NCBI GenBank assembly: GCA_964480345.1
Contig: CAYZNW010000002.1
Location: 64,524-128,523 of the forward strand
From: an uncultured Candidatus Saccharibacteria bacterium
GTDB taxonomy: Bacteria; Patescibacteriota; Dojkabacteria; SC72
DNA length: 64,000 nt
Reading direction: 5' to 3'
Shown: piece by piece, positions 28,667 to 37,781 of the stretch
Position numbering within the stretch: position 1 is the stretch's first letter
Layout of the letters: each line of letters starts with the position of its first letter
Notes under the pieces: model-generated
Told to the model about the DNA's origin: nothing
Seen by the model: the letters and a program-made list of their open reading frames with translations, nothing else
Database searches by the model: none
Program-made: the position numbers and the translations under genes

Positions 28667-29767
28667 GTGTATAATATATTACATATGAATGATTTACGCA
28701 AAAAAGATATCGTAGATTTACAGAAAGATATTGAAAGTACTATCAAAAATTTAGATCTTGCACAGAAGCAGGAAAGATTAATACAGCTTCAAAATCAAAC
28801 ATTAGACAAAAACTTTTGGTCTAACAATGAGAAAGCTCAACAAACTATGTCTGAAATAACATATATTCAAGAAGAGATAAGTACAGCCGAAGAGTTGAAA
28901 AATGATATTGATACTCTAGTACAGATATTTAATTCAATAAAAAATGAGACAGAACAGAACTTACTAATAGAAGATTATGAATTACTAAGAAAGAAATTGG
29001 ATAAATTTGAATTAAGAAAATTTCTCTCAGGAGAATATGATAGTGCTTATGCAATACTTTCAATACACTCGGGACAAGGAGGAACAGAATCTAATGACTG
29101 GGTAGAGATGCTTTTCAGAATGTACACAATGTATTTTGACAAACAGGGATGGAGATATACTGTATCTGAAATGAGTAAAGGTAATGAAGCTGGAATATCT
29201 ACTGTAACTCTTCTAATTAATCAACCACTCGCTTTTGGAATTCTAAAGAGAGAGCACGGTACTCACAGGCTAGTACGAATATCTCCTTTTAATGCTCAAG
29301 GTTTAAGACAAACAACTTTTGCTGGAGTGGAAGTACTTCCTCAATTAAAAGAAGAAAACAATTTAGAGATACCAGAGAAAGATATTCTATTCAAAGCAGT
29401 AAAATCAGGAGGGCCAGGAGGGCAGAATGTTAACAAGACATCCTCTGCAGTTCAGATAACTCACATACCAACAAATATTACAGTTCAATCATCAAACGAG
29501 AGAAGCCAAGCTCAAAACAGAGAGAATGCTATGAACATACTTAAGGCAAAACTTTGGAGAATAAAAGAGGAACAAAGACTTACTAAAATTTCTGATATTA
29601 AAGGAGAGTACAAAATAGCCGGCTGGGGGAATCAGATTAGAAACTACATACTACATCCATATAAACTGATTAAAGATTTACGAACAGGAGTCGAATTAAG
29701 TAATCCTGAAAGTGTATTAGATGGAAATATAGATGAACTAGTTGAAGCAGAAATCAGAATGAAGTAA
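28667..29767 (+). CDS. prfB: Peptide chain release factor 2
   Basis: GGQ motif (SGGPGGQNVNKTSSAV) and the RF2-specific SPF tripeptide (RISPFNAQG). Reads through in a single frame, with no programmed frameshift. Confidence 0.9.
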   Translation: MYNILHMNDLRKKDIVDLQKDIESTIKNLDLAQKQERLIQLQNQTLDKNFWSNNEKAQQTMSEITYIQEEISTAEELKNDIDTLVQIFNSIKNETEQNLLIEDYELLRKKLDKFELRKFLSGEYDSAYAILSIHSGQGGTESNDWVEMLFRMYTMYFDKQGWRYTVSEMSKGNEAGISTVTLLINQPLAFGILKREHGTHRLVRISPFNAQGLRQTTFAGVEVLPQLKEENNLEIPEKDILFKAVKSGGPGGQNVNKTSSAVQITHIPTNITVQSSNERSQAQNRENAMNILKAKLWRIKEEQRLTKISDIKGEYKIAGWGNQIRNYILHPYKLIKDLRTGVELSNPESVLDGNIDELVEAEIRMK

Positions 29768-29806: not shown

Positions 29807-30775
29807 ATGTTACTGTTCCAAGATGTAACAAAAAAATATTCACAAGATATAACAGCACTAGATGAGGTTACTTTTAATATTGATAAAGGAGAGTTCTCTT
29901 TCTTAGTAGGACCATCAGGTGCAGGTAAAACAACCTTAATGAAACTTCTCATAAGAGAAGAAGTTCCAACTTCAGGAAGCATTTTTTTTGAAGATGTGGA
30001 GATTAATAACTTACCGAAACCTTTAATCCCTCAGTATAGGCAAAGGCTGGGAATAGTCTTTCAAGATATTAAACTTCTACAAACCAAGACATTGGAAGAG
30101 AATATCGCTTTCTCTTTAGAAATATTAGGTAAAGCCGAAAAAGAAATTAAAGAGACTACTGATTACTTACTAAATCTAGTTAAACTAGAGAACAGAAAGA
30201 CACTCTTTCCTGTGCAGCTCTCTGGAGGAGAACAGCAAAGAGGAGCTATTGCTAGAGCATTAGCAAGTAATCCTGACCTATTAGTTGCAGATGAACCTAC
30301 AGGCAACTTAGATCCAGACAATTCTTTCCAAATTCTAGATATATTAAAAAATATTAACAAAAATGGAACAACCGTAATGGTCATTAGTCACGATAAAGAG
30401 ATTGTAGATTTTATGAAAACTAGAGTCATAAGGATGGAAAATGGAAAAATAGTCTCTGACAACAAGGGTGATTACAATACAATCAAAAAACCAAAGAAAG
30501 TAAATATACATATTAAGACAGATAAAGAGGAAGAAAAGAAGAAAGAAGAAGATACAAATCAAAAGGTAGAGGAGAAAGAGATTAAGATAGAGAAAGATAT
30601 AGAAGACTTAGATAAAAAAGTGCTAAAGAAATTAAGTAAAGCAAAAATAACAAATATGGAGATGATATTGAAATTAACAGAGGATGATTTAAAAAACATA
30701 GAATTTAGCAAAGAAGATCAATCTATTTTAGAAGATTTCGTTCGAGAGTATTTAAATAAATCGAAAAACAATTAA
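29807..30775 (+). CDS. ftsE: Cell division ATP-binding protein FtsE with about 95 aa K/E-rich C-terminal extension
   Basis: Walker A GPSGAGKTT, ABC signature LSGGEQQRGAIARAL, Walker B LLVADEP. Canonical FtsE ends near residue 225; here a charged tail continues to 322. Confidence 0.9.
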   Translation: MLLFQDVTKKYSQDITALDEVTFNIDKGEFSFLVGPSGAGKTTLMKLLIREEVPTSGSIFFEDVEINNLPKPLIPQYRQRLGIVFQDIKLLQTKTLEENIAFSLEILGKAEKEIKETTDYLLNLVKLENRKTLFPVQLSGGEQQRGAIARALASNPDLLVADEPTGNLDPDNSFQILDILKNINKNGTTVMVISHDKEIVDFMKTRVIRMENGKIVSDNKGDYNTIKKPKKVNIHIKTDKEEEKKKEEDTNQKVEEKEIKIEKDIEDLDKKVLKKLSKAKITNMEMILKLTEDDLKNIEFSKEDQSILEDFVREYLNKSKNN

Positions 30776-30777
30776 TT

Positions 30778-31698
30778 ATGGCAAACAAACTTATTAACAA
30801 TGCAAAAAATAATATTAAAAGAAACAAGTGGTTATCAATATCAACTGTCTTAGTAACCTCTATTGTCATAGCCATATCATCTTTCTTCATAAGTGCAGCT
30901 ATCATTGCACAAAAAGGAGTGCAGTATTATGAGAAGAAAGCACAAGTAATAGTATTTTTCAAAAAAGACACAGAAGAATCATACATTATGCTTTTCAAAG
31001 ATAAGATATATGATTCTAATTTAATAGAGAGTATAGATTACATCTCACAAGAAGAAGCGCTAAATATATACAAAAATGATTTTGCAGAAAATCCAGACCT
31101 ACTATCTACTGTAACAGCTGATTCGTTACCACCAAGTTTAGAAATCAGAGCTAAATCAGTACAATCTTTACTTAAAGTAATTGAAAATATAAATCAGGAG
31201 AAAAAGACAAATGCAAATATAGATGAGGTGATTTACTTCAAAGATGTAGTAGAGAATCTTAAATCTCTAGCAAGAATAATCAATATTAGCTCGGTAATAT
31301 TAATAGCTTCATTAGTAATAATTACATTTTTCTTGATAAGAATAGCCATAGGATTCAATATTAACTCACATAAAGAAGAGATTAGAATCATGCACTTAGT
31401 TGGAGGTTCTGATAATTTCATAAAACTTCCATTTATATTAGAGGGACTATTCTACGGATTAATTGGAGGAGTAATAGGAGCTTCAATCCTGATAATTCCT
31501 TGGTATGTCATCATCTATTACACACAAGGAACAGATTTCGCTCTCTTCATCAACAGTTTCCTAAAAAGCTTTGGTTTAGACTTCCTACAGAGATTTAATC
31601 TTCTTTTCATTTTACTATATTATATTATTCATATAATTGTAGGAGGATTAGTTGGAATCATAAGTAGTCTTAGTGCAATTAAAAAATATTTAGAATAA
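30778..31698 (+). CDS. ftsX: Cell division permease FtsX
   Basis: N-terminal TM helix, large extracytoplasmic loop, three C-terminal TM helices; directly follows ftsE. Confidence 0.8.
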   Translation: MANKLINNAKNNIKRNKWLSISTVLVTSIVIAISSFFISAAIIAQKGVQYYEKKAQVIVFFKKDTEESYIMLFKDKIYDSNLIESIDYISQEEALNIYKNDFAENPDLLSTVTADSLPPSLEIRAKSVQSLLKVIENINQEKKTNANIDEVIYFKDVVENLKSLARIINISSVILIASLVIITFFLIRIAIGFNINSHKEEIRIMHLVGGSDNFIKLPFILEGLFYGLIGGVIGASILIIPWYVIIYYTQGTDFALFINSFLKSFGLDFLQRFNLLFILLYYIIHIIVGGLVGIISSLSAIKKYLE

Positions 31699-31700
31699 AA

Positions 31701-33014
31701 ATGAAGAAAAGGATAATAATTACAATTTTTGTTCTTCTTGTCTCTACTTTGGCCTTAGTCGTACTCGCATCTTCAAAGCAAGAGCCTGTATCAGCTCAAA
31801 CATCATGCCCACCAAATATAGATCCCAATTCATATGAATGTGTTGAGTATCTTAGAAAGCAATCCGAAATTTTAAGGAAACAGCAAGAGAGTATTCAAAG
31901 ACAATTAAAGAATGAAGAGTATCAACAGTTATCATTACAAGAGAAAATTAACTATATAAAGGATCAGATCATACAATCTGAAAAAGTCATACAATCACTA
32001 CAAGTAGAGATAGCTGCAAATGATGTAGAAATTAAACTTCTAGAGAAAGACCTTACGGAAAAAGAAGATACAATATCATTACTTAAACAAGAAATAGGGA
32101 TTTTAGAAGAAACAGTAAATGAACGAATTACAGAATCATACAAATACTCTTTCCTTGGAACTTTCGAAATATTATTAGATATTAACAATATCTCTTCTGC
32201 ATTAAGAAAAGCTAAATATTTAGCATCAACAAGAGAGAAAGATAAACAGTACTTAGAAAACTACTCAGTTAAAGTAACAGAATTAAAGGAAGAGGAGAAA
32301 GAGTTAGCTGAGAACAAGGCTAAAATTCAGATAAAGAGAAATAGTATTGAAGAAGAGAAGATTAAGCTTGCAGAGAATCAAATAGTATTAGATGGACAGA
32401 AAAAAGAAAGAGAATCTCTATTAGCACAATCTAAAGCAAAGCAGGCACAATTGTTAGCAGAAATGGTACAGAAAAAAGATCAACAGGCAGCTTTAGATGC
32501 AAAGATATTAGCCTACATTAATGCACATATGGGAGAGATGATTAAGGAGGGACCTGTACCAAGAGGTGGATTGATAGGATATCTAGATAAAGGTGTTGGA
32601 ACATGCGGATTCTCTACTGGACCTCACTTACATTTTGGAATTAGTAAATCTACCATGAGCCAAGGGTTCTACTCTAATGTTCCAATATGGAGCAATGGGT
32701 ATTTAACATGGCAGGGACCCGGTACTGCATATGACTGGGATGGTACAACTCCTCCTCAACTTGCAACCTCTGGCTCATATTTAATGCCATTAACTGGCTC
32801 GGTAGTAGTCACACAGAATGTTCACGAAAGAGATCCAAGAAACTATCACGCTGTAGACTTAGTCAGAGCAGATTACTACTCTACAGGAGGAGCAGCTGTA
32901 GTAGCAGCAGCTTCAGGTACTGTCTATAGAAGGCAGGAGTGTGGTCAAGGATATGTTGTAATAGACCACAATAACGGATATAGGACAATATACTTACACT
33001 TGAAGTTACAATAA
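31701..33014 (+). CDS. Coiled-coil M23 (LytM-type) peptidase-domain protein, EnvC/PcsB-like partner of FtsEX; M23 motifs in permuted order
   Basis: Signal peptide, then about 250 aa coiled coil. TGPHLHFG occurs first, then YHAVDL (HxxxD), then GYVVIDHNNGYRTIYLHL at the very C-terminus. In canonical M23 domains the order is HxxxD ... xYxHL ... GPHLHFE. Confidence 0.7.
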   Translation: MKKRIIITIFVLLVSTLALVVLASSKQEPVSAQTSCPPNIDPNSYECVEYLRKQSEILRKQQESIQRQLKNEEYQQLSLQEKINYIKDQIIQSEKVIQSLQVEIAANDVEIKLLEKDLTEKEDTISLLKQEIGILEETVNERITESYKYSFLGTFEILLDINNISSALRKAKYLASTREKDKQYLENYSVKVTELKEEEKELAENKAKIQIKRNSIEEEKIKLAENQIVLDGQKKERESLLAQSKAKQAQLLAEMVQKKDQQAALDAKILAYINAHMGEMIKEGPVPRGGLIGYLDKGVGTCGFSTGPHLHFGISKSTMSQGFYSNVPIWSNGYLTWQGPGTAYDWDGTTPPQLATSGSYLMPLTGSVVVTQNVHERDPRNYHAVDLVRADYYSTGGAAVVAAASGTVYRRQECGQGYVVIDHNNGYRTIYLHLKLQ

Positions 33015-33098: not shown

Positions 33099-33941
33099 AT
33101 GAGCAAATCTAAGAAAGCTAAAAACTACCCAAAGAAGGAATCTGCTCCTAAAAAGTCTTTAAAAACTGAAGTTAAGACTGTTGAGAAGAAGATTGCTAAA
33201 AAGATAGAGGTTAAGAAACCAGATCTATCAGGATTAAAGCAGTACAATTACAAACCTGTATTAAAAATATTAGGTTTAATAATTGTAATCATAGCAACAA
33301 TTGCATTAGTAGACCTTGCAGTACAGTTCTTCAACAATTCATATAGCATCGCTGTTGTTAATAACTCTAGAATACCTAGAAATAAATGGACAAAAGAGAT
33401 AGAGAAAATCTATGGAAAAGCTATGTCAGCAAAAATGATTGATGATGAGATCATTAAGTTAGAAGCTAAGAAAGCTAATGTAGAAGTTACTGAAAAAGAT
33501 ATAGAAGATGAGTTAAATACATATAGAGAGAGGATGGGAGGAGAAGAGAAGTTACAAAGTACATTACTAGCAAATAACTTCACAGTAGAGCAATTAAAGG
33601 AACAGATAAAAACTGACTTGATGTTAAGAAAGATTTTGGAACCATCTCTTCAATATACAGAGGATGATATTAAGAACTTCTTCAATCAGTACAGTGATGT
33701 AATCTTCCCAACTGAGGCAGCAGCTTTAGAAGAGGGAGAGAAATTGGATTATGAGAAGTACAAGGAGCAAACTACTGATTGGTATAAGAGACAGTTGGTT
33801 GAGTCTAATATGAGCGATTGGTTAAATACTAAAAGAAGTGAATACAATATTAGAGATAATGCAAAGAATCAACCAAAATATGGATTCTTAACTACAACTA
33901 TTGATTTGATCAATACAGTAGTAGATAAGATTAAGAAGTAA
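33099..33941 (+). CDS. Hypothetical membrane-anchored protein, possibly SurA/PpiD N-domain-like chaperone
   Basis: Lys-rich N-terminus, one TM helix, then a helical domain with weak similarity to SurA_N-type chaperone modules. No PPIase motif. Confidence 0.35.
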   Translation: MSKSKKAKNYPKKESAPKKSLKTEVKTVEKKIAKKIEVKKPDLSGLKQYNYKPVLKILGLIIVIIATIALVDLAVQFFNNSYSIAVVNNSRIPRNKWTKEIEKIYGKAMSAKMIDDEIIKLEAKKANVEVTEKDIEDELNTYRERMGGEEKLQSTLLANNFTVEQLKEQIKTDLMLRKILEPSLQYTEDDIKNFFNQYSDVIFPTEAAALEEGEKLDYEKYKEQTTDWYKRQLVESNMSDWLNTKRSEYNIRDNAKNQPKYGFLTTTIDLINTVVDKIKK

Positions 33942-33966
33942 GTATTTCTTAATAGGTTAGCAAATG

Positions 33967-33990
33967 AAACCCCGCATATGCGGGGTTTTT
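33967..33990 (+). terminator. Rho-independent terminator (AAACCCCGCATATGCGGGGTTTTT), bidirectionally placed between convergent genes
   Basis: Perfect 8-bp GC-rich stem, 4-nt loop, T-tract on + and A-tract on the other side. Confidence 0.7.
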
Positions 33991-35639: not shown

Positions 35640-37781
35640 ATGGAAAACAAGAAGAAATTTATACACATATCAATCCTAACTTTAATAGCCGTATCACTAG
35701 TATCAGCCATATCCATACTTCTTTACAACAACATAAAACAGAATAATCTAGAAAGAAAAACTCCTACAGACATACAAATAGCTAATACTACTCCAACTAC
35801 TACACAAATATATTGGAAAGCATCAAAAGATATACTGTACACACTCTCTTACAAACAGAAACAAAGTACCCTACCGTACAAAGATATGAAGAATTCAGAT
35901 ATCTTTTACGATATTCTCTCTTCAAAAAATGTTTACAGAGTAAATATAGATAATTTAACTCCCAACACAGAGTATATTTTCCGAATACAGATAAAAGATA
36001 ACACATGGTCGGAGTATTCATTCAAAACAAAAGATGTAAATAATGAAATACATATTCCAAATATAGTAACAGGGAAATCTACTCCTAAAAATTTTCTTCT
36101 TGTAAAAACAGATAGCGATACTTTAATGCTAGATACCCAATATCATGGAACATATGCTTTTGATTCTATGAATAAAGAGTACAGTATTGTTAACTATGCT
36201 GATTACACTCCTCAATTAGAATTAAACAAGAAATTTTGGAGTATGATAAATGGTACTGTTTATGCACAAGCTGGAGCTAACTGCAAAACTAATATAACTG
36301 TAAACTCCACAAGATATCCTCCAACTAAAGTAACTGTAGAACAGGTCCTCAGAAAGTGGGTACAGAACTGTGAAGGAGGCTCATACGGTCAGCAGTGCTA
36401 TGAAGATGTATATTGTAAATCATTAGAAGCTGGTATAAGTCCTGCATTTATGATGACGATCTGGTCAAATGAATCAGGAGGAAGCAACTATGCAGGGTTT
36501 AATTTAGATATTGAAGATTTTGGAATACATGGACTCGCCTCTGTTCCTCCAAAGGATTTCACTGCACAGATAGAGTGGTTTCTAAAGACTATAGCTACAG
36601 AAAAATATATATCTTCCTGCCCTGATGGAGAAGACAAATTAATACTGTGGGCTGCTAAATTCTGGACAGGTAAATGTGATAATGAGCAATCAATATTAAA
36701 AGGAAGAGAGTATATTAGCAGAATTAGTAATGTACATAGTTGGTATACTCAAAAACCTTTAGCATGGCCTTTCACTATAGAAAAAGTCGCTAATCCTTGT
36801 GATTACTCCTCAGCAATAACAAACTCCCAGTATAATAACTGTGATTCTACTTCGACCCCATCTCCTACACCTTCTCCTACTCCTACGCCATCTCCGTCAC
36901 CTACACCAAATCCAACGCCATCACCTGTACCAACTCCAGTACCTTCTCCAACACCTACGCCTCCTACTCCACCTACTCCAGGTCCAATAGATGGTAGTAG
37001 AGATGAGATGATTGTTACAGATAAAGATAGATACTGTTTAGATGCTGATGGATGCCAATGCCTATATGATATGAATAACGGCAATGCAGGATACAGAATG
37101 AACATAGACTTTGGATATACATGTACTCCTGATAGAAAATCAGTAAAAACTGAAGCCGTGTGTTGTGAAAACAACTCTAATAGATCATTAAAAATGCCGT
37201 ATGATTGCAACGGAGAAATTAGAAAAGATATAGATAACAACTCATGCTTCACAGAAACAATCGCATATAACTTTGATGCAGGAATCAATTTCATAACAGT
37301 TGCTGAAATAGTAGACTATTCAAAAACAGCAATAACTACTGCGAAAGGAATAATCCAGTATTCTAACAACAAAATAATAGCTGTAGGTAAATTCACAAAT
37401 GGCTCATGGATAGACATCATTAAATATGAAAATGGAGCCATCAATGGAAAAGACTTTACTTTAGAACCAGGAGAAACATATCTATTCATCTCATCAGAAA
37501 AGTTCTCCATCCAATCTTTAGGACGAAAAGTTCAAAATCAAAAAGACATATCATCTCTGACAGGATGGAATCTCATATCTGCGTCTACTCTGATTCAAAA
37601 TAACAGTACATCTACACAAATACTCGAACAAAACAGTACTTACAATATAGTGCAAGTCGCACTATGGAAAAAAGATAGTGCAAAATTCATATATACACTC
37701 AAAGATTCAGAGAACCAAATATATGGAGATGGAATAAATGTATTAACATCAGACTCTATATTTATAAAATTAGATAAATAA
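35640..37781 (+). CDS. Large secreted multidomain protein: FN3-like N-terminal domains, GH73-like (N-acetylglucosaminidase) region, Pro/Thr linker, one 6-Cys module, conserved C-terminal beta domain (paralog 1)
   Basis: N-terminal TM/signal; FN3-like strands (TQIYWKAS...YTLSYKQK...NLTPNTEYIFRIQ). IWSNESGGSNYAGFN...FGIHG resembles the GH73 ESGWG...N.FGIKG motif. PT linker TPSPTPSPTPTPSPSPTPNPTPSPVPTPVPSPTPTPPTPPTPGP. Cys module DRYCLDADGCQCLYD...GYTCTPDRK...VCCENN...YDCNG. C-terminal 200 aa align with the 39124 protein. Confidence 0.6.
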   Translation: MENKKKFIHISILTLIAVSLVSAISILLYNNIKQNNLERKTPTDIQIANTTPTTTQIYWKASKDILYTLSYKQKQSTLPYKDMKNSDIFYDILSSKNVYRVNIDNLTPNTEYIFRIQIKDNTWSEYSFKTKDVNNEIHIPNIVTGKSTPKNFLLVKTDSDTLMLDTQYHGTYAFDSMNKEYSIVNYADYTPQLELNKKFWSMINGTVYAQAGANCKTNITVNSTRYPPTKVTVEQVLRKWVQNCEGGSYGQQCYEDVYCKSLEAGISPAFMMTIWSNESGGSNYAGFNLDIEDFGIHGLASVPPKDFTAQIEWFLKTIATEKYISSCPDGEDKLILWAAKFWTGKCDNEQSILKGREYISRISNVHSWYTQKPLAWPFTIEKVANPCDYSSAITNSQYNNCDSTSTPSPTPSPTPTPSPSPTPNPTPSPVPTPVPSPTPTPPTPPTPGPIDGSRDEMIVTDKDRYCLDADGCQCLYDMNNGNAGYRMNIDFGYTCTPDRKSVKTEAVCCENNSNRSLKMPYDCNGEIRKDIDNNSCFTETIAYNFDAGINFITVAEIVDYSKTAITTAKGIIQYSNNKIIAVGKFTNGSWIDIIKYENGAINGKDFTLEPGETYLFISSEKFSIQSLGRKVQNQKDISSLTGWNLISASTLIQNNSTSTQILEQNSTYNIVQVALWKKDSAKFIYTLKDSENQIYGDGINVLTSDSIFIKLDK

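What the first reader, a model, noticed from the sequence alone, without database searches (positions are those of the whole stretch)
29807..33014. ftsE-ftsX followed by a coiled-coil M23 peptidase whose catalytic motifs are circularly permuted; FtsE has a long charged tail
Established knowledge: FtsEX recruits or activates coiled-coil peptidoglycan hydrolase regulators (EnvC, PcsB, RipC, CwlO). The downstream gene has exactly that architecture (signal peptide, about 250-aa coiled coil, M23 domain). Seen in sequence: the M23 motifs appear as GPHLHFG, then HAVDL, then VIDHNNGYRTIYLHL(KLQ-stop). Canonical LytM/lysostaphin order is HxxxD, then H(L), then GPHLHFE. The protein terminates right after the HL motif. 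This is either a circular permutation of the M23 fold or a partial tandem duplication with loss of the C-terminal strand. FtsE also carries an about 95-aa K/E-rich extension absent from canonical FtsE.
Basis: partly seen in the sequence, partly recalled or inferred. Interest (0 to 1): 0.6.

Follow-up and report, generated by a model that had tools for sequence, protein, structure and literature searches.

The report
Circularly permuted M23 hydrolase beside FtsEX
In this candidate-phylum (Dojkabacteria) genome, the cell-wall-cutting enzyme next to the division ATPase FtsEX has the two halves of its M23 catalytic domain in swapped order, a rearrangement conserved across many related ultrasmall bacteria and not found described in the papers searched.

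Summary
ftsE (29807-30775), ftsX (30778-31698) and a 437-aa gene (31701-33014) lie 2 nt apart. The third protein has a membrane anchor or signal peptide, an EnvC-like antiparallel coiled-coil hairpin, and an M23/LytM domain in swapped order: canonical C-half (V..G..IG..STGPHLHF..P..GYL), a 25-aa linker, then canonical N-half (PL.G..TQ..H...D...Y.HL-stop).

It is not a frameshift or a half-duplication. More than 50 orthologues in Dojkabacteria species genomes stop 1-4 residues after Y.H[LIM]. Each segment occurs once. A family profile put back into canonical order matches ordinary M23 proteins as one stretch (median 71 vs 34 bits; 129 of 130).

H309, H311, D386 and H433 are invariant in 120 sequences. 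A His (H375) sits upstream of the Asp at variable spacing. An active zinc peptidase is therefore more likely than an EnvC-type inactive activator.

The prfB-ftsE-ftsX-M23-surA_N order is conserved throughout Dojkabacteria. Other permuted subfamilies, mostly ftsEX-linked, occur in Berkelbacteria and other Patescibacteria.

The FtsE tail is a K/E-rich linker plus a conserved SAM-like domain, found only in Dojkabacteria.

Verdict: a new variant of a known kind. Function and zinc-site geometry are inferred, not shown.

The parts
28667..29767 (+). prfB (release factor 2; a single uninterrupted ORF). First gene of the conserved block.
   Evidence: Pfam PCRF plus RF-1. Found upstream of ftsE in every Dojkabacteria locus that has enough flank.
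29807..30448 (+). FtsE ABC ATPase core (residues 1-214). Walker A GPSGAGKT, signature LSGGEQQR, Walker B LLVADEPT and H-loop ISHD are all present.
   Evidence: TIGR02673 FtsE covers 1-214 of 214 profile positions, 260.2 bits (cutoff 264.85); Pfam ABC_tran E 5e-33. Motifs read from the translation.
30449..30601 (+). FtsE K/E-rich linker of variable length (about residues 215-265).
   Evidence: Length and sequence vary among 50 Dojkabacteria FtsE proteins.
30602..30775 (+). FtsE C-terminal conserved domain of about 55 aa, SAM-like (helix-hairpin-helix type), plus the stop codon.
   Evidence: Conserved across Dojkabacteria. The family profile hits the EphA1 SAM domain 3hil at E 6.6e-4 and RpoA alpha-CTD at E 0.2-1. 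18 of 30 members hit Pfam SAM_2 and 14 of 30 hit SAM_1, best E 4e-5; the window copy scores 19.6 bits against a cutoff of 20.5.
30778..31698 (+). FtsX (four-TM permease-like subunit with an extracellular domain at residues 56-149).
   Evidence: Pfam FtsX_ECD (52.5 bits) and FtsX (36.6 bits), both above cutoff. NCBIfam FtsX models are the best hits but fall below their cutoffs.
31701..31772 (+). N-terminal hydrophobic helix of the hydrolase (residues 1-24): a signal peptide or membrane anchor.
   Evidence: Helix 2-24 in the AlphaFold model; hydrophobic sequence. No signal-peptide predictor was available.
31833..32525 (+). Antiparallel coiled-coil hairpin: helix 45-150, a six-residue helix 154-159 at the tip, and helix 164-275. 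The conserved tip region 142-185 is the presumed FtsX-binding site. It is preceded by the conserved Cys pair C36/C47.
   Evidence: AlphaFold pLDDT is about 90-97 over the helices. Foldseek's best PDB hit is 8tzl_E, EnvC in FtsEX-EnvC, at E 3.4e-5; 6tpi_A, 4cgk (PcsB) and 6ewy (RipA) also hit. Nearly invariant columns cluster at 142-185. The EnvC hairpin with its six-residue linker helix is described in PMC7668044.
32547..32705 (+). Permuted M23 domain, first segment. This is the canonical C-terminal half: the GD-box-like hairpin V286..G289..I292-G293, STGPHLHF with H309 (catalytic) and H311 (zinc ligand), and ..P..GYL (residues 283-335).
   Evidence: Aligns to the later part of canonical M23 chains. 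H309, H311 and G293 are invariant in 120 sequences.
32706..32780 (+). Linker joining the former C-terminus to the former N-terminus (about residues 336-360).
   Evidence: No counterpart in canonical M23. The lowest pLDDT of the domain (60) is at 341-350. Other permuted subfamilies manage with only 4-6 residues here.
32781..33014 (+). Permuted M23 domain, second segment. This is the canonical N-terminal half: P363-L-T-G, TQ372, H375 (probable zinc ligand), D386 (zinc ligand), G406 and Y431-L-H433-L (catalytic His), followed by KLQ and the stop codon.
   Evidence: Pfam M23 profile positions 7-53 match residues 391-435. Aligns to the earlier part of canonical chains. P363, D386, G406, Y431 and H433 are invariant, and H375 is present in 106 of 120. 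Orthologues stop 1-4 residues after Y.H[LIM].
33099..33941 (+). SurA_N-like membrane-anchored protein. Conserved downstream neighbour, probably in the same transcript.
   Evidence: Pfam SurA_N_3, 34.2 bits. Downstream of the hydrolase gene in every Dojkabacteria locus with enough 3' flank to show it, adjacent in most. No terminator-like site lies between 33014 and 33099.
33966..33989 (+). Terminator-like GC-rich hairpin followed by a T run: the likely end of the operon.
   Evidence: 10-bp stem with 6 GC pairs, and the only such site on the + strand between 28400 and 34100. This is a consensus match only.

Best explanation
The locus is a cell-division peptidoglycan-hydrolase module, ftsE-ftsX plus a secreted or anchored coiled-coil hydrolase. 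The hydrolase's M23/LytM catalytic domain is a genuine, evolutionarily fixed circular permutation.

Anatomy (shown): the polypeptide runs anchor, EnvC-like coiled-coil hairpin, canonical C-half of M23 (GD-box hairpin plus HxH), linker, canonical N-half (H...D, then Y.HL), stop. The new termini lie in the loop that normally follows the Y.HL strand. The old termini are joined by a linker.

Origin (inferred): tandem duplication of the M23 domain in an ancestral Patescibacterial FtsEX-partner protein, followed by loss of the outer halves.

Mechanism (inferred by analogy with EnvC, PcsB, CwlO and RipC):
1. ATP binding and hydrolysis by FtsE moves the FtsX extracellular domains.
2. These grip the conserved tip of the coiled-coil hairpin.
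3. The conformational change relieves inhibition of the M23 domain.
4. The M23 domain, which keeps all zinc-binding and catalytic residues, itself cuts peptidoglycan peptide cross-links at the septum. In this it resembles the Gram-positive direct hydrolases rather than the inactive EnvC activator.

In Dojkabacteria, FtsE additionally carries a flexible K/E linker and a SAM-like domain. This presumably tethers the complex to a cytoplasmic partner (divisome protein, nucleic acid, or itself). That last step is speculation.
For: Permutation:
- Pairwise HMMER alignments to solved M23 proteins show the two halves in reversed order.
- A family profile rearranged to canonical order hits 129 of 130 canonical M23 proteins better. 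The match is one continuous stretch, median 71.2 against 33.9 bits, with only 2-3 residues inserted at the rejoined junction.
- The native profile matches tandem M23-M23 proteins as one stretch across their junction (P0018: 67.9 bits, profile 3-152).

Conservation:
- 64 loci in GTDB species genomes match residues 1-435, nearly all labelled Dojkabacteria/WS6.
- More than 50 complete orthologues end 1-4 residues after Y.H[LIM].
- 327 proteins score E<=1e-10 in the 5.8-billion set.
- Forty permuted proteins from other subfamilies, including a Berkelbacteria record, were found. The linker between '..P..YL' and 'WP..ITQ.YG' was measurable in 34 of them and is only 4-6 residues in 28.

Active site: H309, H311, D386 and H433 are invariant in 120 sequences. 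A His lies upstream of the Asp in 169 of 171.

Fold and architecture: the AlphaFold model from 120 sequences has pLDDT 85.3, a hairpin coiled coil and a beta domain at 283-435 with 10-residue block means mostly 77-93 (dipping to 60 in the linker and 71 in the H375 loop). The best PDB match is EnvC in the FtsEX-EnvC complex.

Linkage:
- Gene spacers are 2 nt.
- prfB-ftsE-ftsX-hydrolase-surA_N synteny holds in all Dojkabacteria loci with flank.
- ftsEX is directly adjacent in four of six non-Dojkabacteria loci and two genes away in a fifth.

Precedent: the hybrid barrel-sandwich domains to which M23 is related exist in topologies related by circular permutation (PMC11515920).
Against: - No 3-D superposition on LytM or lysostaphin could be made, so assembly of the zinc site is not verified. 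Coordinates are not exposed, and Foldseek on the full-length model is dominated by the coiled coil.
- In the window protein the His-Asp spacing is H-x10-D, against HxxxD in canonical M23. The pLDDT of that loop is only 71.
- The FtsE and FtsX NCBIfam scores fall just or clearly below the curated cutoffs.
- Enzyme activity, FtsX binding and regulation are all inferred from homologous systems.
- One non-Dojkabacteria locus (L070) has two permuted paralogues and no ftsEX within 4 kb.
Confidence: 0.8

Rival explanations
1. The domain is permuted but catalytically inactive. Like EnvC or NlpD, it would act as an FtsEX-controlled activator of another hydrolase rather than cutting peptidoglycan itself.
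For: The best structural match of the whole protein is EnvC. The His-Asp spacing is non-canonical and variable across the family: D-6 in 77 of 171, D-11 in the window, and up to D-21. That could mean the zinc site is degenerate.
Against: H309, H311, D386 and H433 are invariant in 120 sequences, and a His upstream of the Asp is present in 169 of 171. EnvC's LytM domain lacks the catalytic residues (PMC7668044). From my own knowledge, LAS-family enzymes tolerate an H-x(3-6)-D spacing. Other permuted subfamilies keep the canonical H.G.D.
Confidence: 0.12
2. The hydrolase gene merely sits next to ftsEX. It would be a housekeeping or predatory/epibiotic lytic enzyme not controlled by FtsEX.
For: Patescibacteria are often episymbionts and carry many M23 genes; extra M23 genes appear in L065 and L066. 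L070 has permuted paralogues without ftsEX nearby.
Against: Gene spacing is 2 nt, and synteny is invariant across about 50 species-level genomes with only 35-78% protein identity. The EnvC/PcsB-type coiled-coil hairpin has its most conserved residues at the tip. Adjacency is also seen in distant subfamilies.
Confidence: 0.08
3. The domain is a relic of a partial tandem duplication: two incomplete M23 copies that do not form one fold.
For: Tandem M23-M23 proteins exist (P0018, P0039, P0051, P0061), and a permuted-order unit can be read across their junction.
Against: Each segment and each catalytic motif is present exactly once, and together they add up to one complete domain with only 2-3 residues missing. 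The beta domain is modelled with mostly high confidence (10-residue block means mostly 77-93, dipping to 60 in the linker and 71 in the H375 loop). All catalytic residues are under strong purifying conservation.
Confidence: 0.03
4. The early stop is a sequencing or assembly frameshift, or the gene is a pseudogene. The true protein would continue into a canonical GPHLHFE segment.
For: None found.
Against: Only 84 nt separate the stop codon from the next gene, and they hold no M23-like sequence. More than 50 independent assemblies stop at the same place. An identical 437-aa protein is on record from three contigs (P0153).
Confidence: 0.01

Closest known systems
EnvC (E. coli, V. cholerae): the FtsEX-bound coiled-coil LytM protein
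   Same: The gene is linked to ftsEX. The protein has an N-terminal export signal and an antiparallel coiled-coil hairpin with a short six-residue helix at the tip. The C-terminal domain is of the M23/LytM family. EnvC is the best PDB structural match (8tzl_E, 6tpi_A).
   Different: EnvC's LytM domain is in canonical order, lacks the catalytic residues and activates amidases. Here the domain is circularly permuted and keeps all catalytic residues. No separate kinked 'restraining arm' helix is predicted; helix 164-275 runs almost straight into the domain.
PcsB (S. pneumoniae), CwlO (B. subtilis), RipC (mycobacteria): FtsEX-activated direct hydrolases
   Same: All are coiled-coil proteins whose own catalytic domain cuts peptidoglycan under FtsEX control in bacteria without an outer membrane. 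JGI labels relatives of this family 'CwlO-like'. Pfam CC_PcsB gives weak hits in sister subfamilies. PcsB 4cgk appears among the Foldseek hits.
   Different: Their catalytic domains are CHAP or NlpC/P60 cysteine peptidases, not M23 zinc peptidases.
Canonical M23 peptidases (LytM, lysostaphin, ShyA, Csd3, MepM)
   Same: The sequence motifs are the same: H..D, Y.HL and G.H.HF, plus the GD-box hairpin. The Pfam M23 match is above threshold. The un-permuted profile aligns end to end with canonical proteins.
   Different: The order of the two halves is swapped. There are new termini next to the catalytic-His strand, an added 25-aa linker, and H-x10-D spacing in the window protein.
Canonical-order coiled-coil M23 proteins of Paceibacteria/Portnoybacteria (for example P0296, P0331)
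   Same: They belong to the same phylum and have the same coiled-coil plus M23 architecture. The domain begins 'G.L.WP..ITQ.YG' and ends exactly at 'NP..YL'. These are the two sequences found fused in the permuted proteins.
   Different: Their domain order is canonical. They are the likely ancestral state. Their ftsEX linkage was not checked here.
Circularly permuted families of NlpC/P60 (YaeF/poxvirus G6R, LRAT-like)
   Same: They are a precedent for natural circular permutation of a cell-wall peptidase catalytic domain that swaps the order of the catalytic residues (PMC6403190).
   Different: They have an unrelated fold and chemistry (papain-like cysteine peptidase).

Membership tests
Peptidase M23 / LytM (LAS zinc metallopeptidases) | Significant match to the family profile (Pfam PF01551 above its gathering score) | tested here: met
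   43.2 bits against a cutoff of 28.7, E 4.7e-11, in two stretches.
Peptidase M23 / LytM (LAS zinc metallopeptidases) | HxH motif (catalytic His plus zinc-ligand His) | tested here: met
   H309-L-H311 is invariant in 120 family members.
Peptidase M23 / LytM (LAS zinc metallopeptidases) | Catalytic His in the Y.HL strand | tested here: met
   Y431 and H433 are invariant.
Peptidase M23 / LytM (LAS zinc metallopeptidases) | HxxxD zinc-binding motif | tested here: inconclusive
   D386 is invariant. A His lies upstream in 169 of 171 members, but the spacing varies: D-4 in 29, D-6 in 77, and D-11 (H375) in the window, which also has a subtype-specific H383 at D-3. Geometry was not verified.
Peptidase M23 / LytM (LAS zinc metallopeptidases) | Canonical linear order H..D, then Y.HL, then HxH | tested here: not met
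   The order here is HxH, then H..D, then Y.HL, which is a circular permutation. The protein belongs to the superfamily but has a different topology.
Peptidase M23 / LytM (LAS zinc metallopeptidases) | M23 three-dimensional fold with a single zinc site | not testable with these tools
FtsEX-regulated coiled-coil hydrolases and activators (EnvC/PcsB/CwlO/RipC class) | Gene linked to ftsE-ftsX | tested here: met
   Spacers of 2 nt. Conserved in all Dojkabacteria loci with flank and in L065-L069.
FtsEX-regulated coiled-coil hydrolases and activators (EnvC/PcsB/CwlO/RipC class) | Exported protein with an antiparallel coiled-coil hairpin ahead of the catalytic or activator domain | tested here: met
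   Helices 45-150 and 164-275 with a tip helix at 154-159. Best PDB hit is EnvC in the FtsEX complex at E 3.4e-5.
FtsEX-regulated coiled-coil hydrolases and activators (EnvC/PcsB/CwlO/RipC class) | Physical binding of the coiled coil to the FtsX extracellular domain, and ATP-dependent activation | not testable with these tools
   Supported only indirectly: the hairpin-tip region 142-185 is the best-conserved part of the coiled coil.
EnvC-type amidase activator (degenerate LytM) | Loss of the M23 catalytic and zinc residues | tested here: not met
   All are retained and invariant, so the protein is not filed as an EnvC orthologue.
FtsE (NCBIfam TIGR02673 equivalog) | Score above the curated cutoff | tested here: inconclusive
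   260.2 bits against a cutoff of 264.85. It is the best hit by 90 bits and covers the full profile. Adjacency to ftsX supports the assignment.
FtsX | FtsX_ECD plus the FtsX permease domain | tested here: met
   Pfam 52.5 and 36.6 bits, both above cutoff. The NCBIfam FtsX equivalogs fall below their cutoffs (158 against 225).
SAM domain (the FtsE C-terminal domain) | Match to the SAM_1 or SAM_2 profiles | tested here: inconclusive
   The window copy scores 19.6 bits against a cutoff of 20.5. 18 of 30 orthologues hit SAM_2 at E<=0.1, best 4e-5. The family profile hits the EphA1 SAM domain in the PDB at E 6.6e-4.

The most novel reading that the evidence does not exclude
The permutation is not a neutral rearrangement but a rewiring of how FtsEX controls the enzyme. 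The coiled coil now joins the GD-box hairpin that leads into the HxH motif. The strand bearing the catalytic His becomes a free C-terminus 1-4 residues long. Movement of the coiled coil driven by FtsEX could therefore open or close the active site directly, without an EnvC-like restraining arm. This would be a new mode of mechanical gating of a peptidoglycan hydrolase, fixed in several Patescibacteria classes. In Dojkabacteria it would be coupled to a cytoplasmic SAM-like module on FtsE that links the machine to a polymer or nucleic acid.
Probability: 0.15. Interest if true: 0.75.

Novelty: new variant of a known kind. Interest (0 to 1): 0.55.

Why it matters
M23/LytM domains are among the most studied cell-wall hydrolases (lysostaphin, LytM, EnvC, ShyA), and the order of their motifs is used as a diagnostic. 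I found no description of a natural circular permutation of this domain in the searchable literature.

- **Protein design.** The permutation shows that the fold tolerates new termini next to the catalytic His, and that the native termini can be joined by as few as 4-6 residues. That is useful for engineering M23 lysins.
- **Annotation.** Databases label these proteins only 'CwlO-like', 'MepM/NlpD' or 'hypothetical', and Pfam covers only half of the domain. Motif-order checks could wrongly score the proteins as truncated or inactive.
- **Cell division in Patescibacteria.** The finding gives a concrete, testable candidate for the septal hydrolase of FtsEX in largely uncultured ultrasmall bacteria. 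It also offers a natural experiment on how the attachment geometry between coiled coil and catalytic domain affects FtsEX control.
- **FtsE.** The FtsE-SAM-like fusion points to an unexplored cytoplasmic connection of FtsEX in Dojkabacteria.

Tried and rejected
Searches and tools that gave nothing useful:
- The word-index homologue search with the domain alone found nothing at E<=1e-3. The exhaustive HMMER search was needed.
- Single-sequence AlphaFold of the domain was useless, pLDDT 32.
A closer 8-sequence alignment worked.
- Foldseek of the full-length model against the PDB and against viral structures returned mostly coiled-coil proteins and no informative M23-domain superposition.
- The context look-up for P0070 returned no DNA.

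Hypotheses rejected:
- Frameshift or truncated gene.
- Partial tandem duplication.
- EnvC-like degenerate activator: unlikely but not excluded.
- H383 ('HAVD') as the conserved zinc ligand. It is subtype-specific, whereas H375 is family-wide.
- The FtsE tail as pure low-complexity sequence. It ends in a conserved domain.

The simple native-versus-unpermuted HMM score comparison did not classify the distant subfamilies cleanly. Motif position relative to the C-terminus was used instead.

Full report
**1. What is in the sequence**

Three + strand ORFs lie at the reported coordinates, each separated from the next by 2 nt:
- ftsE, 29807-30775, 322 aa.
- ftsX, 30778-31698, 306 aa.
- A 437-aa gene, 31701-33014.

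prfB (28667-29767) lies upstream and a SurA_N-like gene (33099-33941) downstream. The only strong terminator-like hairpin on this strand is at 33966-33989. The five genes therefore probably form one transcript; this is an inference.

Family assignments:
- FtsE. Pfam ABC_tran. The best NCBIfam model is TIGR02673, which covers residues 1-214 at 260.2 bits, just under its cutoff of 264.85.
- FtsX. Pfam FtsX_ECD plus FtsX, both above cutoff.
- Third protein. Peptidase_M23 at 43.2 bits (cutoff 28.7) in two stretches. The better one places residues 391-435 on profile positions 7-53 of 96. In other words, the first half of the Pfam model matches the very end of the protein.

**2. The permutation is real at sequence level**

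phmmer of residues 275-437 against PDB sequences shows each canonical M23 chain (2gu1, 4rny, 3slu, 6muk) matching in two pieces with reversed order. The query's C-terminal part (..DL..AA.SGTV...G.GYVVIDH.NGY.TIYLHL) aligns to the earlier part of the chain. The query's N-terminal part (V.RGGLIG...G..G.STGPHLHFG) aligns to the later part.

I then built family profiles from 52 orthologous domains, once in native order and once with the two segments swapped back. I searched 130 canonical M23 proteins with both.
- The re-ordered profile gives one continuous match, median best-stretch score 71.2 bits and span 101 positions.
- The native profile gives 33.9 bits and 78 positions.
- The re-ordered profile wins in 129 of 130 cases.
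- Alignments across the rejoined junction need only 2-3 extra residues in the canonical proteins: '..YlHLk--klvnegpVkaGevIG..' against '..YFHLSaySVGNGQQVSQGQQIG..'.

Each segment and each catalytic motif is present once. The cut is a clean one in the loop after the Y.HL strand.

**3. It is not an artefact**

- Only 84 nt separate the stop codon from the next gene, and none of it encodes M23-like sequence.
- An exhaustive HMMER search of 1.84 billion cluster representatives found 17 proteins of 407-453 aa (plus fragments) that match the whole domain in one stretch ending at their own C-terminus.
- A scan of GTDB species genomes found 64 loci, nearly all labelled Candidatus Dojkabacteria or WS6. 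Some records carry automatically assigned 'Saccharibacteria' or 'Patescibacteria group' labels. The matches cover residues 1-435.
- In more than 50 complete orthologues the ORF stops 1-4 residues after Y.H[L/I/M].
- A profile search of the 5.8-billion-protein set gave 327 relatives at E<=1e-10. One is identical to the window protein (P0153, on record from three contigs). Sources call these proteins 'CwlO-like', 'MepM/NlpD', 'metalloendopeptidase' or 'hypothetical'.

**4. Catalytic residues**

In a 120-sequence alignment the invariant columns of the domain are G293, H309, H311, P363, D386, G406, Y431 and H433. By established knowledge of LytM and lysostaphin:
- HxH supplies one catalytic His and one zinc ligand.
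- The His of Y.HL is the second catalytic His.
- The H..D pair supplies the other two zinc ligands.

A His upstream of the invariant Asp is present in 169 of 171 sequences. It is anchored to the preceding 'TQ(D/N)xH' strand, and its distance from the Asp varies:
- D-6 in 77 sequences.
- The canonical D-4 in 29.
- 11, 14, 19 or 21 in the others.

The window protein has H375 at D-11. It also has H383 at D-3, which occurs only in its own subtype.

Retention of all five residues argues for an active metallopeptidase. It argues against an EnvC-type activator, whose LytM domain lacks them (PMC7668044). The geometry could not be checked.

**5. Architecture and structural resemblance**

AlphaFold2 with the 120-sequence alignment gave mean pLDDT 85.3. 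The model contains:
- Helix 2-24, an anchor or signal peptide.
- Helix 45-150, a six-residue helix 154-159, and helix 164-275, which together form an antiparallel hairpin.
- A beta-rich domain at 283-435 with 10-residue block means mostly 77-93. These dip to 60 in the linker (341-350) and 71 in the H375 loop.

Foldseek against the PDB ranks EnvC from the V. cholerae FtsE/FtsX/EnvC cryo-EM complex first (8tzl_E, E 3.4e-5). E. coli EnvC (6tpi_A), PcsB (4cgk) and the RipA N-domain (6ewy) also appear. EnvC's hairpin likewise has a six-residue helix in its tip linker, and its two FtsX-binding sites flank the tip (PMC7668044). In this family, the nearly invariant coiled-coil residues cluster at 142-185, around the predicted tip.

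**6. Linkage to ftsEX**

In every Dojkabacteria locus with enough flank, the order prfB-ftsE-ftsX-hydrolase-surA_N-like is kept, although hydrolase identity falls to 32-40%.

The permutation extends beyond Dojkabacteria. Forty further coiled-coil proteins of about 310-430 aa from other Patescibacteria end in Y.H[LM] with the HxH motif about 100 residues upstream. Examples:
- P0284, labelled Candidatus Berkelbacteria.
- P0267, labelled 'Patescibacteria group'.
- The P0332 and P0358 types.

Six of their loci were read:
- ftsE-ftsX lies directly upstream in three (L065, L066, L067).
- ftsE-ftsX lies two genes upstream in L068.
- ftsE-ftsX lies directly downstream in L069, followed by a PcsB-like CHAP protein.
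- L070 has two permuted paralogues and no ftsEX within 4 kb.

**7. Origin**

Canonical-order coiled-coil M23 proteins occur in Paceibacteria/Portnoybacteria-type records. Their domain begins 'G.L.WP....ITQ.YG', and 53 of 76 end exactly at 'NP..YL'.

In the permuted non-Dojkabacteria proteins those two sequences are fused: '..NPRNYL-GGVLA-WPMTNYRITQEYG..'. The linker could be measured in 34 of them and is only 4-6 residues in 28.

This is what the junction of a tandem duplication would look like. Tandem M23-M23 proteins exist, and the native permuted profile matches them in one stretch across the junction. Un-permuted P0284 scores highest against the Patescibacterial canonical set (maximum 140.8 against 100.9 bits).

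I infer duplication followed by loss of the outer halves. Because all subfamilies share the same cut site, this probably happened once, but no phylogeny was made. The short linkers also imply that the native termini of the fold lie close together. As context, the hybrid barrel-sandwich domains related to M23 occur in topologies related by circular permutation (PMC11515920).

**8. The FtsE tail**

The extension is 108 aa (215-322). Across 50 Dojkabacteria FtsE proteins (median length 318 aa) it consists of a K/E-rich linker of variable length and a conserved domain of about 55 aa, 'L.k.l..KL.kakI...d.iLNLTe.DL.Nlkls.ke...LE.FVk.YL'.

Evidence on the identity of that domain:
- A profile of it hits the EphA1 SAM domain (3hil, E 6.6e-4) and, more weakly, RNA polymerase alpha-CTDs.
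- 18 of 30 members hit Pfam SAM_2 and 14 hit SAM_1, best E 4e-5. The window copy scores 19.6 bits against a cutoff of 20.5.

I call it SAM-like with moderate confidence. Its partner is unknown. FtsE in the other permuted-hydrolase loci is 226-247 aa, so the tail is a separate, Dojkabacteria-specific feature.

**9. Comparison with what is known, and novelty**

- Functionally the protein belongs with the FtsEX-controlled coiled-coil hydrolases.
- In chemistry it is M23, like EnvC.
- In retaining catalytic residues it is like the direct hydrolases PcsB, CwlO and RipC.
- In topology it differs from every M23 described in the papers I could search.

Searches combining circular permutation or 'permuted' with M23, LytM or FtsEX, and Dojkabacteria, Patescibacteria or CPR with FtsE or FtsX, returned nothing on this. 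The nearest precedent is the permuted NlpC/P60 families (PMC6403190). I rate it a new variant of a known kind.

**10. Limits**

Activity, zinc binding, FtsX binding and regulation are inferred. No structural superposition of the domain was possible. Taxon labels come from record titles. The Cys-pair statistic in the side notes is not corrected for phylogeny.

Noticed in passing
window 30449-30775 (FtsE residues 215-322): The FtsE 'charged tail' is a K/E-rich linker of variable length plus a conserved SAM-like domain of about 55 aa. It occurs in all Dojkabacteria FtsE proteins examined and is absent from FtsE (226-247 aa) in other Patescibacteria that also have the permuted hydrolase.
   Followed up: partly
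L003:5001-6281 compared with window 31701-33014: The catalytic domain looks as if it has been exchanged as a cassette. The closest relative by FtsE and FtsX (86-87% identity) is 75% identical in the coiled coil but only 37% in the M23 domain. More distant L001 and L002 (75-79% in FtsEX) are 85-86% identical in the domain. This suggests recombination or diversifying exchange of the hydrolase head.
   Followed up: partly
window 31806-31841 (C36, C47); 32601-32603 (C301) and 32940-32942 (C414): A CP...C pair ahead of the coiled coil is present in 156 of 162 family members. A second pair, one Cys before HxH and one before the G.GY strand, co-occurs: 71 have both, 53 neither, 33 only one (Fisher p 4e-14, not corrected for phylogeny). 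These may be disulfides, the second one stapling the two permuted halves together.
   Followed up: partly
window 33099-33941 and 33966-33989: A membrane-anchored SurA_N-like protein lies downstream of the hydrolase gene in every Dojkabacteria locus with enough 3' flank to show it, adjacent in most. The only strong terminator-like hairpin comes after it. It may be a dedicated extracytoplasmic chaperone in the same operon.
   Followed up: partly
L069:300-4447; L068:2694-5299; L070:2763-5128: Other Patescibacteria show variations on the theme. In L069, ftsEX is flanked by a permuted M23 protein and a PcsB-like coiled-coil CHAP protein. L068 has an extra coiled-coil Peptidase_C39_2 protein between ftsX and the permuted M23. 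L070 has two tandem permuted-M23 paralogues.
   Followed up: no
proteins P0018, P0039, P0051, P0058, P0061 (not in the window): These are proteins with two tandem canonical M23 domains. The permuted-order profile matches them as one stretch across the junction between the copies. They are plausible models of the duplication intermediate.
   Followed up: partly
window 28667-29767: The release factor 2 gene (SPF motif, PCRF plus RF-1 domains) is one uninterrupted ORF starting at GTG. It shows no sign of the programmed +1 frameshift common in bacterial prfB.
   Followed up: no
window 35640-37781: A 713-aa protein with an N-terminal hydrophobic segment and a long Pro/Thr/Ser-rich linker (PSPTPSPTPTPSPSPTP...). 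It was not analysed.
   Followed up: no
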